A DNA stretch of 7,774 bases from Amoeboradix gromovi X-113 (Eukaryota > Fungi > Sanchytriomycota). Both the position numbers and the translations under genes were made by a program. This document shows, one piece after another, positions 1 through 7,422 of this stretch (the first letter of the stretch is position 1; every line of letters starts with the position of its first letter). The notes beneath the pieces were generated by a model. That model did not search any database, was not told the origin of the DNA, and saw only the letters and a program-made list of their open reading frames with translations. The stretch lies in contig JADGIF010000488.1 of NCBI GenBank assembly GCA_018985225.1, positions 1 through 7,774 on the forward strand, given 5' to 3'.

Positions 1-110
1 AATGAGAGAATCTTGGTATAACAGATGAAGATCTTTAATTAATGATAGCATTTCCTCCGTATGGAGCACCTTTAAAAACGAGTTAGTCTAGTTTTTATAT
101 TTGGTGTCCC
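1..110. mobile_element. End of a second copy of the Sola-like DNA transposon family, extending left out of the window
   Basis: The reverse complement of 81-110 nearly matches the terminus at 5379-5409. Recognisable recombinase similarity ends here and the frame stops at a TAG inside the repeat. Confidence 0.65.
81..110 (-). repeat. Terminal inverted repeat, copy 1 (minus strand GGGACACCAAATATAAAAACTAGACTAACT)
   Basis: Differs from 5379-5409 by one substitution and one 1-bp indel in the A run. Confidence 0.88.
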
Positions 111-623
111 CAATCAGCATGTCAGCATACTCCAATCGTAATGGTGGCACATGGAAATAAAGGGGATTAAACTATCACTTTTTGCAGTTGAAGCATCTGC
201 TCAATCGAGGAACCACACGCTTTCAAATTTATATAATTTTGTATTTCACGATTCAATATTTCCCTAAAACACTCCCAAGTTCCAAGTTAGCCAGTTTTCT
301 TTCATGACATCCGTCATTTCCTGTTTATCATCATGCTCTACTCTTTTATCGTTAAGTCCTTCAATGGTCCTCAAATAGGCTGACTTAGCTGTTTCGGTCA
401 ATACAAATGGTTTATCTTTTATTTCTTTTCCATGCAACGGTAAAAGTCCAATATAATAATTTCTTCGAGTTGTTTCTTTTAGTGTGTCACCAGTAGTACC
501 TTTTCGTCTATCTATAAAAACTCTCACGTCATCTGGATTATTAATATCCACATCTGCATTCTTTAACCTCCTATAAATGCCAAGATACTGTTTTATTGAA
601 GATTTCTCTTGATTGTTTCCCAT
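111..623 (-). pseudogene. Tyrosine recombinase/integrase-like pseudogene (Polinton-like virus, virophage or NCLDV type), truncated by transposon insertion
   Basis: ORF 264-623 (SSIKQYL...TTRRNYY...KENWLTW) continues if one copy of a 7-bp duplication (275-288) is removed, giving WECFREILNREIQNYINLKACGSSIEQMLQLQKVIV*S. After a +1 shift in the G4 run at 162-165 it reads LYFHVPPLRLEYADMLI. The order ENW..W, then LY..xPPxR.(D/E)Y..M, resembles the region around the first catalytic Arg of these viral YR proteins. Confidence 0.65.
275..288. repeat. 7-bp tandem duplication CCAAGTT-CCAAGTT causing a frameshift
   Basis: Directly visible at 275-281 and 282-288. Removing one unit restores the frame. Confidence 0.85.
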
Positions 624-1362
624 TAGCTATATAAAACAAAAAAAACTAGTTATAGTTTCCCACACATCTAGAATATGGTCTCTCACTAAAAAACTTATAG
701 AACAATGGACTTTACTCGGGATATTTTCTAACAATCTATTTTGTATTCAAGTGAGATATCTTATGGTTACTATCGAGTTCTTTAAGTTATAAAAACTATT
801 TATTTTATTTTAGCAATTTGTACACCGTTTCCTGTAGTTCATGTAGTATGCAGATGGATGGATATTTTGATAGTTTCTCTTTTATTTTGTGCCATTAATT
901 GTTATTCCTTTATCGTACCCGGGTGGTAATCCGAAAACTGCAAGGATCTCTGTAATCAACAACTAATTTAATCGCATAACACAAATATATACTGGGTTAT
1001 CACACTGGTATTGTCATTTCAGTTAATATTTTAGGGACCCAATTACGATCTTTACCCTATCATACTGCTAATTGTATTTCTTTAAGATATTTTATCAGAC
1101 ATTATCCTCATATTCTGGAATCACCATATCGGAAAACACTGTTCAGCATTGACAAAATATTTCTAAAAAAAGTGACCGAAATTATTCAAATTTTTGATAC
1201 TCGAAAATCTGAAATTTTTACAAATTGTTTTTGAGTCTAAAAAAATAACTTCAAAGCCTCTCCATTTTCTTTCTAGAAATTAGAATAAACAGGTAATGCA
1301 GGAATCCAAGGCCTAGTAATAGGATTCGAGGTCTTCAAATACCACTGCCGGTTCACAACGGA

Positions 1363-1845
1363 ATGATAATCATTTTACTAATTATGGCAAGCTGTCTACC
1401 CATGTCTGGCCGATTCCTCCAGAAAAAACCCCGTGGTGGAGCTCCAAATTTACAAAGCTCCACAAGAACTGCTCCGCAGGAATCTTTATCAGCTTTTCGG
1501 AATTTTGAGCAAAATAGGCAGGGCTTGCTTGATAGGACAACTGCATTAGGTGCAGAGACAAAAATATTTAACAATGAGAGGCTATCTGGTCCCAATAATG
1601 ATCCCTTTGGTCACTCGCTTAAATGGGCAGGATTGAACGAGAAAATTAGTGCACACAGAAATAGTTGGGAATATTGGCTTAAATCAGAACTGCTGCCTCA
1701 GCATCATGCCGAAGTTCATCCAGTTGCTTTAGATCAACTGAAATCGCTAAAAGATATCCAAAGTCTTCATTCTAGTCATCCAGATATGCCAATAATATCC
1801 AGGACTATTAATAACCATGTCGCACTACATTACAGTCAGAAGTGA
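1363..1845 (+). CDS. Hypothetical small secreted protein, 160 aa
   Basis: ATG-initiated uninterrupted ORF with a hydrophobic N-terminus (MIIILLIMASC/LP) resembling a signal peptide. AATAAA follows at 1888-1893. No recognisable domain. Confidence 0.6.
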   Translation: MIIILLIMASCLPMSGRFLQKKPRGGAPNLQSSTRTAPQESLSAFRNFEQNRQGLLDRTTALGAETKIFNNERLSGPNNDPFGHSLKWAGLNEKISAHRNSWEYWLKSELLPQHHAEVHPVALDQLKSLKDIQSLHSSHPDMPIISRTINNHVALHYSQK

Positions 1846-1887
1846 TTTGCTAGTCGTAAAGAGATGGGGTAATATGAGCAAAATAGA

Positions 1888-1904
1888 AATAAACAACGTT
1901 TATT
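1888..1904. terminator. Back-to-back polyadenylation signals AATAAA-caacg-TTTATT for two convergent genes
   Basis: AATAAA on + at 1888-1893 and on - at 1899-1904, within the 67-bp gap between the two stop codons. Confidence 0.5.
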
Positions 1905-1912
1905 ATACAATT

Positions 1913-3025
1913 CTATAATTTTGAACCTACTATGTCATCCCATTCTGAGTCACCCAATTTCTGTTTTACTTCGCTTAATAGCCGAGGTATAATTCCAATC
2001 CCATTGTAAACCATTCCTGTATAAATCTGAACTGCATTGCATCCCATTTCGGCCAGCTCTATTATCTGATCACTGGTGGTAATACCACCACATCCTATAA
2101 TCTGCAGTTCTTTAGACTTGATTTCATTCTTCAATTCATTGCAGAACCTTCCCAAGGTGCTCTTCATGATAGGGTACAATGGTTTACCACTTAGACCTCC
2201 TGTTTCTTTAGCAAATTCACCGTCAACAGGCTTTTGAATTGTGGTATTGCTAATTATTAAACCTTTGATGAAACTATACTGCTTGACCACGCTGCAAATA
2301 TCAGATATGTCTTCGTCATGAAGATCCGGCGCTACTTTTAATAAAACCGGTTTAGATGCATGTGACTTTAAATCCTTAAAAAGCTGATTTAATTGTCTTT
2401 TACCTTGCAAGGCACGTAAGCCTGGTGTATTTGGACTACTAATATTAATCACCAAATAATCCGCATATTTGGAAAAGGTATCCATACCTTGGATATAATC
2501 ATCACTAGCAGATTCCTGAGGATATTTATTTTTACCAAGATTGACACCAAAGAGTTTCGTTTCTGGTAATTTGATACATTTTATCCTTGACTCTACGATA
2601 TCGTGGCCATCTGAATTAAATCCATATCTGTTAATTACCGCTTCTTCGTTTACAATACGAAAAACTCGAGGTTTCTCGTTACCTTCTTGTGGACAAGGCG
2701 TTATACTACCAATCTCAATTATGCCGAACCCAAGGTTTGCCAGATTGGTGATTGATTCACCATTTTTTGAGTATCCGGCAGCTATTCCTATGGGGCTATC
2801 CAACCTTTTGCCCAGTAGAGTACATGGGATGGTAGTGCTGGCGCGGTGCAGTTGAAAAATGGAAGATAATCGCAAAGACCATACATGGGCATCCTCTGGG
2901 TCAATCTGACGAAGGGCCCGTCCAATAAGATCATGGATGCGAGCGTTTGGATGTTTGGAATAGTCATAAAGTAAATAAATAGAAAGCAAAGTAGCAGTCC
3001 ATTTGAGTGGTGATTGGAACTGCAT
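1913..3025 (-). CDS. URA9: Dihydroorotate dehydrogenase (quinone), class 2, mitochondrial type, 370 aa, intronless
   Basis: Motifs DPEDAH, PIGIAAG, EIGSITP.PQEGN..PRVFR, INRYGFNS.GH, GVNLGKNK, VINISSPNTPGLR (catalytic Ser), KVAPDL, SNTT, GGLSGKPL, GGI and VQIYT, plus an N-terminal transmembrane segment. The first in-frame ATG is at 3025; the ORF-track start at 3055 is a TTG. Confidence 0.97.
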   Translation of the reverse strand: MQFQSPLKWTATLLSIYLLYDYSKHPNARIHDLIGRALRQIDPEDAHVWSLRLSSIFQLHRASTTIPCTLLGKRLDSPIGIAAGYSKNGESITNLANLGFGIIEIGSITPCPQEGNEKPRVFRIVNEEAVINRYGFNSDGHDIVESRIKCIKLPETKLFGVNLGKNKYPQESASDDYIQGMDTFSKYADYLVINISSPNTPGLRALQGKRQLNQLFKDLKSHASKPVLLKVAPDLHDEDISDICSVVKQYSFIKGLIISNTTIQKPVDGEFAKETGGLSGKPLYPIMKSTLGRFCNELKNEIKSKELQIIGCGGITTSDQIIELAEMGCNAVQIYTGMVYNGIGIIPRLLSEVKQKLGDSEWDDIVGSKL

Positions 3026-3111
3026 GTGTTTCAGAATAGGGAACCGAATAAACAATGTAGGCTTATAAAAATAGAGTTAAAATAAGAAATTTTGCGAGAT
3101 TCTGCAGCGAC

Positions 3112-3134
3112 AAAAAATAATGTAAGAAGCAAAA
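3112..3134 (-). terminator. RNA polymerase III terminator T-runs downstream of the tRNA
   Basis: T4 immediately 3' of the tRNA (3131-3134) and T6 at 3112-3117 on the minus strand. Confidence 0.55.
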
Positions 3135-3215
3135 TGACAGAAGTGAGGTTCGAACTCACGCCTCTTGCGAGACCAGAGCCTAAATCTGGCGCCTTAACCA
3201 CTCGGCCATCCTGCC
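3135..3215 (-). tRNA. tRNA-Leu, anticodon TAG, no intron, no encoded CCA
   Basis: Minus strand GGCAGGATGGCCGAGTGGTTAAGGCGCCAGATTTAGGCTCTGGTCTCGCAAGAGGCGTGAGTTCGAACCTCACTTCTGTCA. Acceptor stem GGCAGGA/TTCTGTC, anticodon arm CCAGA-TTTAGGC-TCTGG, long variable arm, TTCGAAC T-loop. Confidence 0.97.
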
Positions 3216-4573
3216 ATAAAGGCTAGGTTTTAATTTATAATATAATTCGCGTTTATGCGGCAGTTTAAGTAACCCACTCTGTTATTTTGCATTTGGTGCT
3301 AAAAATTTTAAGACTCGCTGTGTTTCAAAACTTAAGACCCGAGGCTAGATTTTTCAGTTAATTCACGAAAAATCCATTTTTAGTACATGTTTACATTGTG
3401 GGTGATGCCCACTCATTATCCTCAAAAAGCGTCATTTGACTACTTCTGCTGAGAAATCACAGAATCTTCATCCTAACTAGCCAATAAGTCTTTACTGAAT
3501 TAGATAAAAAAGTATCTCTGTTGAACTATAAATTTTATTAATATTCATCTTCTTACGCCACTGCGCTTACATAAAGCAGGCCATAGGGAGCTAGTACAAA
3601 CATCGAACTCAAAAATAAAACGCATTTTAATATCCAAAGCTGCTAATGTAAGTGCATGGTTCCTTTAGCACAATCATCACTAAGTTTTCGGGATTTTCTC
3701 TTTCCGTATCGCAAAAGTATAAAAAGATTTAAAAGCTCTAATGTCAGGTTCCCATGGATCATCTTTTTTCAGCTAATGGTAAATGACTCATTCTTAGTTC
3801 TTCTTTCGCTTATCTGTGTAAATTCATCCCATGGAAGTGACTCGTCTTTTCCTATGTTACGCCACTAGAAGTGTTGGTCTCCAAAAACATTAGAATTTCA
3901 TAGAGAATGCTTTAGCTAATCTGTTACAATGCCTGCTTATGCTTCTACTGCTCTGATGCGGGTTAAGGATGCATATACTTCAAGTACATGCTAATCGTTG
4001 CCATAGGTTCTATTTAATTGTAAAAGACCACTTGAAATTTTTCTGGTGGATGTGAAGTTCTAAGACTAAGTACTGGCCGGTAGTTCGAGAGCATAATTTT
4101 GTTCCCTGGAGTATACTTTCGCAAATAGGATGATATCTCTTACGGGCGATGTGGAAATACGCAATAACTCTCGAATCCCTAGTATAAGGTACAGTGATCT
4201 GTTTCCTGATGACGAGGCATCAATCAATTTACTTTAAAAGACCGGTTCTATATCACCCTTTCATATCTGTAAATTTGACATATTCTGGTTGTGGTAATTA
4301 GGATACATTTGTCTTGAATGAAAAGATAGATTATCGAGTCTTAACGCGATTGCTAACATCTAAAAGAGAAGGTATTGAATACAACTAATGTAATCACAAA
4401 AATAATTTATTCAATACAATCGATATTTGCTTGTATACAACCTTATTTGGACCGTGTTAATTGCTCATATTAATTTTTGGAGTCTATTAAAGGATAAGGG
4501 TGGTCAAAATTTGACAAGCGTATTTGCAGCAATATCCTCTTTCAGTTTTTCAAAGTCTCTCCAAACACGGAAA

Positions 4574-5065
4574 ATGAATGTCCAATCTGTTCATGTTCCA
4601 GCTCATGTAGTATTGCAAATACAGCATAACATCACTGCGCATATTATAGGATATTGTAAGGATGAAGTGGCTTACGTAACTCAGATTTGTCCCACGGTAC
4701 CACCAAATCAAAATACGGCATCTTCCCAATTTCAGCAAGTATATCTAAGTTATTTGTCAACATCGCATGCATATGGAATCCCCATAGGATGGACACTAAA
4801 AGGAGAGCTATTTCCCCAAACTAGAAACTTTCACAAGCAACTGAATCAGGCGTTATTTGGAGCAATATTAATCCAGTACGTGAACCGTAGATTGGTGGCA
4901 TTTAATGGGGAGTTTGAGGAAATTAATTTGGTAGTCGAAAGTAATCCATTACTCACTTCATATATTTTACAAAATGACAACGCCATGCTCTCTTACTCAA
5001 ATGCGGATAATGATGAGGATATTTTGAAAGCCCTAAAGAAACCCATAAATGGAGAGACTCTATGA
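4574..5065 (+). CDS. Divergent, shortened MPN-domain protein, most similar to translation initiation factor eIF3 subunit H, 163 aa
   Basis: Segments align by eye with eIF3h: VQSVHVPAHVVLQI ~ VKQVQIDGLVVLKI, IIG...AYVTQICP ~ LLG...LEITNCFP, QFQQVYLSYL ~ QYQMEMMRSL, IGW ~ VGW, FEEINLVVESNPLL ~ FEEVPIVIKNSHLI and EDILKALKKP ~ EDLSKLFKP. The first ATG is at 4574; the ORF-track start at 4427 is a TTG. Confidence 0.68.
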   Translation: MNVQSVHVPAHVVLQIQHNITAHIIGYCKDEVAYVTQICPTVPPNQNTASSQFQQVYLSYLSTSHAYGIPIGWTLKGELFPQTRNFHKQLNQALFGAILIQYVNRRLVAFNGEFEEINLVVESNPLLTSYILQNDNAMLSYSNADNDEDILKALKKPINGETL

Positions 5066-5378: not shown

Positions 5379-5409
5379 GGGACACCAAGTATAAAAAACT
5401 AGACTAACT
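5379..5409 (+). repeat. Terminal inverted repeat, copy 2 (GGGACACCAAGTATAAAAAACTAGACTAACT)
   Basis: Inverted near-identity to 81-110. Lies just beyond the 3' end of the transposase pseudogene. Confidence 0.88.
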
Positions 5410-5569
5410 GCACCCAGCCAATCAAATCAAGACATTTTATTTATTCGAATATAAAAAATAGATCAGCTCATTGGACCAATGAAATCGAGTATTTTCACTA
5501 ATTCAAATATAAAAACTAAATCAAATCATTTGACCAATCACGCTTTTTGAATCAAAAATAGTTTATCAA

Positions 5570-7422
5570 TTATAAACCCCGAGAGGTGGTGGTTGGTTCA
5601 TCAACAAGATAAACAAGTTTCATATAAAATAGGCTTAAATGAAAATCAATTTATTTAAAAGTCTCTTGAAACTTGCCAATGGCTGAAATGTCTATGAAGA
5701 TCAAATCTAATTTAGATCGGTAGTCTTTGAAGCGACGACTTGGGAATACTTTACATTCATTGGTGACAGACGACGTCTCAACAAGACTTTTCACTTGATC
5801 CAAATTAAAGATATTTTCTCTTGCAAATTTCTTTTTGATATGACCAAAGCCACTATCAGGACTAAATTTGGTGTGACCCTTCATCATAAATTTAAATTCA
5901 ATGGTATTACATTTTTGGAGTAGGCACATCCAACTGAGTGATTTAATAATGGTGTTGTTCTTGTTTTGACCAACACAATTGTCTGCATGTAAAATCAAAT
6001 TCATACGTTGTTCTTTTGGTAAGCAGTAAATGTAATCTAATAGCAAGGTTGCTACATTATTACTAGCCTTTTTGCACTGGTCTTCTCTGTAAATGTAATT
6101 CATTTGACAATGATGTGTCTCATTGTGGATGCCAAACAAATTGACATTTAATAAACTTAGAAAATACAAGTCACTTGGTTGGTCGTGTAATTGTGGCAAA
6201 CTCAGATTCTGACTATAGTCAAATGAAATGTGTGCAAAGTTGTCACGAAGGTGATCATTATTCTAGTCAAGTCTTGCTAATTTTTCTTGCTGTAAATGCT
6301 CCTGAAACGCGGTTGTTAATTCTAAAGTAGCACTTTCTGATAGATCTTGTACATTTAGTTGCTCACGAAATACTGGTCAAGTATCACAGATATCTGTCTT
6401 TCCAGACTTTATTTTAATATTACCACAAAGCTTAAAATTTTTTCTGAATGTTTCTACATTGATATTCAAGGTACTATCGTCACGTGAGTAAATGCCATGT
6501 AATTTGACAATGGTCAGATCAGCTGGTAACCACAAGATGTTTGTGTCACGTACACGTCTGGTTCGATCGCTACGCGTGTACATTCTACCAGGTCTTGGTT
6601 CACCATTTTCATTTGCAAATGTTTTGGTCCAACTGATAATACTTTCTTTCTCTTCAAATGTAAATGCGTGCAAGAATACCTTGTGCTATGAGTCTGTCAA
6701 ATGGGGCCTGTTATGACCCTGTAAGAAGTCTGAGACACAAAGTCCTGTCTGCGAATCATAATGTCTGGGACAGAGGATTGTACAGGAACAGCGAACCAAT
6801 CAAGTACCATAGGGGCAAGCACGGTATGCAAGTTATGGGTATGAATAGGCGACAAATCTTTAGTAAACAATCTATTTATTATGAGCATTGACTTTAGTAA
6901 CAAAAACATCTTGCAAGCAAATAAGGATAAGGACCAAGGATTAGGTCCGGCCTCAGTAAATACTTTACACCTTGTCTATGCTGCCATGAATTCTTTTGGT
7001 CCACTTTACTTCCATGCTACTAATAATATTTTGCAATCATTTTTTTGATTGGAGATGGACACCAATTTACCAATTGGAAAAACGTAATACTCAAACACTT
7101 TTCCTCTTGCGTGTTGTTCTTTTTGACAAGACACAAGTATTCCTTTCAATAGTAATTCTTGTTCGTGTTTTCCCATTGGCTGAAATTTGTTTTTGAATGT
7201 TGTCAAATCTTCTGGCGAAACGTGATTGATGCATCTCTTTGTACAACAAACAATGGTACTACAATCTTGCAGCCACAGCTGTATATCAAAGGTTTCTTAC
7301 TCAATGTCTTCTTGTTCATTGTGTTGTTGAGATTCTTCTTCTTCATTGTAATTGACAACTAAATCACCATTTGCATCAAATCTAAACAATGAATCTTGTG
7401 AATGAAATGGATTCTGTGACAT
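5570..7422 (-). pseudogene. Sola-like DDD transposase pseudogene
   Basis: ATG at 7422 gives MSQNPF...EDIE*ETFD...VCCTKRC...EQELLLKGIL...FEYYVFPIGK. After a break, one frame runs from ~6685 to 5651: HAFTFEEK...GEPRPGR...LWLPADLT...KTDICDT*...HL...ARLD*...HISFDYSQNLSLP...QPSDLYF...FGI...LILHADNCVGQNKN...GHTKFSPDSGFGHIKK. In-frame stops are at 7297-7299, 6377-6379 and 6263-6265. The C-terminus is degenerate (QPPPLGV near 5575-5597). Candidate catalytic aspartates are in SFDY, ADNC and SPDS. Confidence 0.85.

What the first reader, a model, noticed from the sequence alone, without database searches (positions are those of the whole stretch)
111..623. Relic of a virus-type tyrosine recombinase embedded among host genes
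Seen: the 119-aa ORF extends through a 7-bp duplication, one stop and a +1 slip to ...KENWLTWECFREIL...VIV(L)SLYFHVPPLRLEYADM. Knowledge: an N-terminal helical region followed by ENW..W and LY..xPPxR.(D/E)Y recalls YR integrases of Polinton-like viruses, virophages and some large DNA viruses. Inference: this marks an endogenous viral element or a poorly described YR transposon family in a fungus-like genome. No capsid or polymerase gene is recognisable upstream (624-1360), so it may be a stand-alone YR element or an element edge.
Basis: partly seen in the sequence, partly recalled or inferred. Interest (0 to 1): 0.75.

Follow-up and report, generated by a model that had tools for sequence, protein, structure and literature searches.

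The report
Dead viral-type integrase gene in eukaryote
This is the broken front half of a gene for a DNA-inserting enzyme of the type carried by small DNA viruses of microbial eukaryotes, cut off by a jumping gene; it is likely a leftover of such a virus, or possibly of an undescribed mobile element, in the host chromosome.

Summary
Observation confirmed. Window 623-112 (minus strand) holds three colinear pieces that match residues 1-~170 of intact 298-318 aa metagenomic proteins (about 51% identity). It is broken by a 7-bp duplication, a stop and a second frameshift, and cut at 111/110 by a transposon end. The intact relatives fold as tyrosine recombinases (XerD/XerA/Cre, Z 10-11). Their profile matches virophage and Polinton-like-virus (PLV) integrases over the full length (99.9%, E 8e-37), not Crypton or Starship domains. 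The relic keeps only the first catalytic Arg, so it is dead as a recombinase. It belongs to a separate long-branch subclade, seen only in metagenome assemblies and one protist assembly. Clade-specific scans found it in neither IMG/VR nor prokaryote genomes. No other viral gene lies in the window. Whether the parent was a capsid-bearing virus (about 55%) or a stand-alone recombinase transposon (about 30%) is unresolved, because the C-terminal half and most neighbours of intact copies could not be fetched. 'Fungus-like' was not tested. Endogenous PLV and virophage remains are well known, so this is a new member of a known kind.

The parts
279..623 (-). Recombinase piece 1: N-terminal helical core-binding domain up to the NW motif (the 119-aa ORF runs on out of frame to a stop at 266-264)
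   Evidence: 51% to P0008 1-114; nearest clusters Preplasmiviricota 0.98, core-binding/Phage_int_SAM clusters 0.92-0.97; recognition score just under the tool's threshold
275..288 (-). 7-bp tandem duplication causing the first frameshift
   Evidence: sequence
170..280 (-). Recombinase piece 2: first helices of the catalytic domain
   Evidence: 41-49% over 37 aa
163..169 (-). Second lesion: in-frame TAA (169-167) and a frameshift
   Evidence: sequence
112..162 (-). Recombinase piece 3 with PPLR; first catalytic Arg codon at 138-136
   Evidence: R160 of P0008 invariant in alignment A5
1..110 (.). End of a very abundant terminal-inverted-repeat element that cuts the gene; its last 30 bp match the end of the DUF7869 element at 5379
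   Evidence: 29 of 31 columns match; summed contig depth 72,504 over 1-260 against 22-37 nearby; 36 contigs leave at 110 into other flanks
624..1296 (.). AT-rich (31% GC) upstream region with no ORF of 90 aa or more; holds the unlocated upstream boundary of the element

Best explanation
The stretch is the frameshifted, transposon-truncated N-terminal half of a virophage/PLV-type tyrosine recombinase gene, likely left at the edge of a small DNA virus that integrated into this eukaryote's chromosome. Shown: family assignment, lesions, truncation and loss of all catalytic residues but the first Arg. Inferred from tyrosine-recombinase chemistry: the intact enzyme would bind attachment sites beside its own gene, cut with its C-terminal Tyr and recombine a circular element into host DNA without a target-site duplication. 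Inferred: the gene pointed inwards from the element's end, so host genes follow within about 0.7 kb upstream, and any capsid, ATPase or replicase genes would lie beyond the interrupting transposon, left of the window. The relic cannot recombine. At most it would yield a 119-aa DNA-binding fragment, for which there is no expression evidence.
For: Model of P0008 (pLDDT 68): the top 8 structural matches are tyrosine recombinases (XerD Z 10.7, rmsd 4.7, 156 aligned; Cre Z 10.2, rmsd 6.6, 239 aligned). Foldseek PDB top rows are XerA, integrases and Cre, best E 2e-3. In the viral library 14 matches reach E 1e-3 or better, and the named ones are giant-virus and virophage proteins (best E 3.5e-10). 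The ESM Atlas's nearest clusters are Preplasmiviricota at 0.98. The clade profile against 24 virophage/PLV recombinases gives probability 99.94%, E 8e-37 over 281 columns. 79 of 88 distant loci carry a capsid or packaging-ATPase cluster, including 35 in the cluster whose representative hits Sputnik_MCP at E 1.6e-76. Yutin 2015 (PMC4642659, passages) places PLV recombinase genes near the ends of integrated elements and reports one disrupted by a retrotransposon.
Against: All relatives with viral context are only 22-33% identical, and 80 of the 88 came from a virus-only collection, so their context is selected. The relic's own clade sits on a long branch apart from them. Clade-specific scans of IMG/VR found no member (one search gave one chance hit), although these use only 2-6 short patterns. 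No second viral gene lies in the window. The one intact close relative with a visible flank (L010) has 636 nt upstream without an ORF of 90 aa, against 3 of 80 distant loci with gaps of 630 nt or more (median 81 nt). GC does not stand out from the host (35% against 39% for DHODH).
Confidence: 0.55

Rival explanations
1. A stand-alone, capsid-less DNA transposon that carries only this virus-derived recombinase and moves through an excised circle, as Cryptons are thought to, but from a different recombinase lineage.
For: ORF-free upstream flank in both loci where it is visible (window; L010). Protist assembly B1 has 3 or more matches on 1.2-1.9 kb contigs, two of which end at the same codon, as expected of a repeat. 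The clade includes split or truncated forms (P0003+P0010, P0012+P0015, P0009) beside intact near-copies. It was absent from the IMG/VR and prokaryote scans and from phage and plasmid records.
Against: No element ends were identified, and the window and L010 upstream regions share no sequence. No further copy at 80% DNA identity or more was seen in the run (4 records laid on 105-1400). An empty flank is equally expected at a virus terminus or attachment site. Endogenous viruses are also multi-copy and decay.
Confidence: 0.3
2. A fragment of an endogenous giant virus (Nucleocytoviricota), which also carry recombinases of this type.
For: Most named top matches in the viral structure library are giant-virus proteins (Hokovirus, Aureococcus virus, Tetraselmis virus 1). 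Some distant relatives lie beside VLTF3 and PCNA genes (L008, L009). P0004 lies on a 45.7-kb contig.
Against: Sequence-feature neighbours are Preplasmiviricota clusters, no giant-virus gene was recognised in the window, and host DHODH and tRNA-Leu lie within 1.3-2.6 kb.
Confidence: 0.1
3. A cellular gene, a prokaryotic contaminant or an assembly chimera.
For: The fold is shared with bacterial Xer and integrase proteins.
Against: No relative in the two scans of GTDB genomes, in phages or in plasmids. Contigs of the run tile 87-3604 with overlaps from the relic into DHODH. The gene is broken here and patchily distributed.
Confidence: 0.05

Closest known systems
OLV11-like tyrosine recombinases of PLVs and Organic Lake-group virophages (Yutin et al. 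2015, PMC4642659)
   Same: About 300-320 aa; helical N-domain with a TxRNY-type motif, then LY..P.R.DY, YKT/FKT, S(S/T)MLR, MGH and a terminal Tyr in the same order. Full-length profile match to 24 virophage/PLV recombinases. The RED1_13 'Yrec(OLV11)' entry in the paper's supplement shows the same motif order by eye.
   Different: Only 22-33% identity; a separate long-branch clade (SH-aLRT 100, quick tree); no capsid context seen for any member; the copy here is a pseudogene.
Endogenous PLVs and virophages of protists and chytrid fungi (PMC10120064; PMC12220804; bioRxiv 10.64898/2026.06.19.733378)
   Same: Virus-type recombinase inside a eukaryotic chromosome, hit by a nested transposon.
   Different: Those are recognised by capsid and ATPase genes and terminal repeats; none is visible in this window.
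Crypton transposons (PMC3212892; Glomhoppers, PMC13465315)
   Same: Recombinase-only eukaryotic DNA elements; this is what the stand-alone reading would work like.
   Different: No DUF3504, GCR1_C or NDC10_II Pfam match in 7 clade members; Ndc10 scores Z 5.7 against 10.7 for XerD; no intron seen in the intact members.
Phaeovirus tyrosine recombinase (PMC13236599)
   Same: Eukaryotic DNA-virus integrase placed near the end of the integrated element.
   Different: Belongs to giant viruses and was filtered at over 400 aa in that paper; not compared directly here.

Membership tests
Tyrosine recombinase superfamily | Core-binding plus catalytic domain fold | tested here: met
   Tested on the intact relative P0008. 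The relic's own single-sequence model was unusable (pLDDT 43) and was not searched.
Tyrosine recombinase superfamily | Catalytic R-K-(H)xxR-H/W-Y residues | tested here: met
   P0008 R160, K194, R270 and Y307 are invariant in alignment A5. H298 is present but is Gln in P0016/P0017, and the His of HxxR is Ser/Thr in clade and viral rows alike. The relic itself retains only the first Arg.
Tyrosine recombinase superfamily | Recombination activity | not testable with these tools
   Needs an assay of an intact relative.
OLV11-like recombinases | Full-length similarity to virophage/PLV recombinases | tested here: met
   hhalign 99.94%, E 8e-37. OLV11 itself was not aligned; the paper's pptx supplement could not be read.
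Endogenous PLV/virophage | Major and minor capsid genes and A32-type ATPase in the element | tested here: inconclusive
   None in the window, but the side where they would lie is outside it and no genome was held.
Endogenous PLV/virophage | Terminal repeats or attachment sites | tested here: inconclusive
   No convincing repeat in 624-1360; no similarity to the L010 upstream flank.
Crypton (A/F) | DUF3504 or GCR1_C domain | tested here: not met
   0 of 7 members hit these families at E up to 10 (HMMER filters drop most matches above about 0.1).
Crypton (A/F) | 4-6 bp terminal direct repeats around a recombinase-only element | not testable with these tools
   No complete element was available.
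Starship | DUF3435 captain recombinase | tested here: not met
   0 of 7 members.
DIRS/Ngaro-type YR retrotransposon | Linked reverse transcriptase/RNase H | tested here: inconclusive
   No such Pfam hit among the 9 window ORFs scanned; downstream side not visible.
Sola2 (interrupting element) | Short TIRs and 4-bp AT-rich target duplication (PMC3627910 passage) | tested here: inconclusive
   Shared 30-bp end; flanks ATTG and ATAA; DUF7869 at E 2.6e-17. Only one end of each copy is visible, and the Sola label for DUF7869 is recalled, not from a call.

The most novel reading that the evidence does not exclude
The relic marks an undescribed family of capsid-less eukaryotic DNA transposons whose only enzyme is a recombinase taken from virophages/PLVs: a Crypton-like lifestyle reached independently from a viral integrase and spread as multi-copy elements in microbial eukaryote genomes.
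Probability: 0.25. Interest if true: 0.7.

Novelty: new member of a known kind. Interest (0 to 1): 0.38.

Why it matters
As an endogenous-virus remnant it adds one host and one divergent integrase subclade to a well-documented phenomenon, which is of modest value. The subclade escapes Pfam, PHROGs and NCBIfam, so it is a usable marker for elements that standard annotation misses. If the intact members prove to be recombinase-only elements, they would be a further independent origin of eukaryotic tyrosine-recombinase transposons and a direct virus-to-transposon transition.

Tried and rejected
No genome was held for the window. The genome index answered once (1 of 20 aligned genomes matched) and was busy six times, so the host assembly, the C-terminal half and further flanks in B1 were not reached; the B1 locus was not held by the genome search. 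The word-index search for longer relatives of the 119-aa ORF found none among 109 candidates. L001 is a chance match to the end of a phage portal-like ORF (label by eye) and was dropped. P0005 (7917 aa, 22 short stretches) was set aside unexamined as a repeat match. A sequence search of PDB with alignment A2 gave nothing below E 0.1. The single-sequence fold of the relic failed. No RNA holder was listed, which says nothing on expression. A reassigned stop codon was rejected: DHODH reads 387 codons open in the standard code and ends in TAG. An assembly-error origin of the lesions was rejected. Depth 36.8 over the relic against 22 next door was not used as a copy number. One locus (recombinase under 200 aa) was left out of the tree; the tree is the quick search, unrooted, with the relic filling 49% of columns. 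The capsid labels 'MCP534/567/414' are my guesses and had no Pfam hit. Five look-ups in earlier findings were blank. Literature searches (listings only) showed no paper on a stand-alone OLV11-type transposon, which is weak evidence because most subscription journals are not covered.

Full report
Observation. The window's minus strand carries a 119-aa ORF from 623 to a TAG at 266-264. A tandem 7-bp duplication at 288-275 shifts the frame. The homologous reading continues at 280-170, meets a TAA at 169-167 and a second frameshift, and resumes at 162-112. At 110 begins the end of a repeated element whose last 30 bp match the end of a decayed DUF7869-encoding element at 5379.

Relatives. A full HMMER search of 1.84 billion representatives with the 119-aa ORF gave 5 hits: itself, three real relatives at 40-45% (P0002-P0004) and one repeat protein that I dropped. 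Further searches and cluster look-ups extended the set to intact proteins of 298-318 aa (P0002, P0004, P0006, P0007, P0008, P0014, P0016, P0017) and several pieces. All but the window's own ORF come from ENA or Logan assemblies and carry no names. They align to the three window pieces in order (sum E 1e-39). Read through with X at the breaks, the relic is 169 aa, 51-52% identical to P0008 and P0016, and 30% identical to the best viral-contig protein (E 2e-8).

Protein family. Pfam, PHROGs and NCBIfam do not recognise the clade. A model of P0008 (pLDDT 68) ranks eight tyrosine recombinases first among 48,161 chains (Z 8.9-10.7). Z values of this size are only moderately above background, but Foldseek gives the same family (best E 2e-3) and the viral library gives giant-virus and virophage proteins (E down to 3.5e-10). 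R160, K194, R270 and Y307 of P0008 are invariant across clade and viral rows. The clade profile aligns end to end with 24 virophage/PLV recombinases (99.94%). Yutin et al. 2015 (PMC4642659; six passages and two supplement passages seen, pptx file unreadable) named this type OLV11-like and predicted it integrates circular genomes. Crypton and Starship domains were not found in 7 of 7 members. The relic ends 8 codons after the first Arg and lacks Lys, the second Arg, His and Tyr, so it cannot be an active recombinase.

Context of relatives. A broad pattern scan returned 103 IMG/VR stretches, of which the best 80 were kept; 8 more loci came from JGI metagenomes. All match at 22-33%. Of these 88 loci, 79 carry a capsid or ATPase cluster. 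Pfam confirms the virophage major and minor capsid representatives strongly, the ATPases weakly as Pox_A32 (E 2e-4 and 6e-5), and three other presumed capsid clusters not at all. This context is biased, since 80 loci come from a virus collection. In a quick unrooted tree of 98 rows the relic and 8 close relatives form one group (SH-aLRT 100) on a long branch. Clade-specific scans found no member in IMG/VR, GTDB, phages or plasmids. One of 20 aligned assemblies, a fragmented protist genome, holds 3 or more matches at 57-68% on short contigs. Its intact-looking copy has 636 nt upstream without an ORF of 90 aa, whereas only 3 of 80 distant loci have such a gap.

The locus. Upstream lie about 0.7 kb without a long ORF, an unassigned 182-codon frame, an intronless mitochondrial-type DHODH and tRNA-Leu. 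None of 1331 non-recombinase ORFs from the related loci matches the window beyond chance (38 hits at E below 0.05, best 0.003). One run holds the stretch. Its contig over 87-713 agrees with the window, so the lesions are real, which matters because Bellas et al. 2023 (PMC10120064, passages) warn that stops in endogenous viral genes can be assembly errors. Two versions of 684-832 differing by 5 substitutions and 1 indel merge into that single contig: two alleles or a local duplication. No more divergent copy at 80% or more was laid.

Interpretation. The family assignment and the dead state are secure (about 0.95). The nature of the parent element is not. The prior favours a virus, because nearly all relatives with known context are viral, and integrated PLVs keep this gene near an end (PMC4642659), which would explain an empty upstream flank with host genes close by. 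Recombinase-bearing endogenous PLVs are common in cryptophytes (PMC12220804, passages), and PLV ATPases are reported in chytrid genomes (bioRxiv 10.64898/2026.06.19.733378, passages). Against this, the relic's own clade was never seen beside a viral gene, was not found among free-virus contigs, and looks multi-copy and partly decayed in eukaryote-type assemblies. That fits a recombinase-only transposon working like a Crypton (PMC3212892, PMC13465315; passages) but equally fits an endogenous virus family. I put virus edge at 0.55, stand-alone element at 0.30, giant-virus fragment at 0.10 and other at 0.05. The recombination mechanism is inferred from established tyrosine-recombinase chemistry and was not tested.

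Limits. No host genome was held, the C-terminal half and the long contigs of intact relatives were not seen, and the host lineage was not determined. Other papers were seen as passages only (PMC13236599, PMC5751038, PMC3627910, bioRxiv 10.64898/2026.10.13.758929). bioRxiv supplements were closed and may list related recombinases.

Verdict. Real, correctly identified, and a new member of a known kind, with an open and testable chance of being a new transposon family. Interest 0.38.

Noticed in passing
window 1-110 and 5379-7296: Two elements share a 30-bp end (GGGACACC...). The right one carries decayed transposase-like frames on the minus strand (DUF7869 at 5654-6262). The left end is enormously abundant in the run's contigs, suggesting a non-autonomous partner. 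Sola-like by recall only.
   Followed up: partly
proteins P0003+P0010, P0012+P0015, P0017: Two copies 94-96% identical share a split at the same place between core-binding and catalytic domains with no other lesion, while P0017, which is 99-100% identical to one of them, is unsplit. This could be recombination among copies, an assembly effect or a functional split/frameshift.
   Followed up: partly
window 1913-3076 (-): Intronless class 2 (quinone) dihydroorotate dehydrogenase, listed under the eukaryote source as a 370-aa protein.
   Followed up: partly
window 3135-3215 (-): tRNA-Leu (TAG anticodon).
   Followed up: yes
window 1297-1845 (+): 182-codon frame with no Pfam, NCBIfam or viral-locus match; host or element origin unknown.
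   Followed up: partly
window 4406-5065 (+): 219-codon frame with no Pfam or NCBIfam hit; by eye it recalls an MPN/eIF3h-like protein (recalled, untested).
   Followed up: partly
window 684-832: Two versions (5 substitutions, 1 indel) at about 20x and 22x depth flank a single 37x contig over the relic: alleles or a local duplication.
   Followed up: partly
window 5418-5533: Two 58-nt tandem copies (76% identical) just inside the transposon end.
   Followed up: no
L008:405-2180 and L009:1992-3340: Virophage-type recombinase next to VLTF3-like and PCNA genes on metagenome contigs.
   Followed up: no
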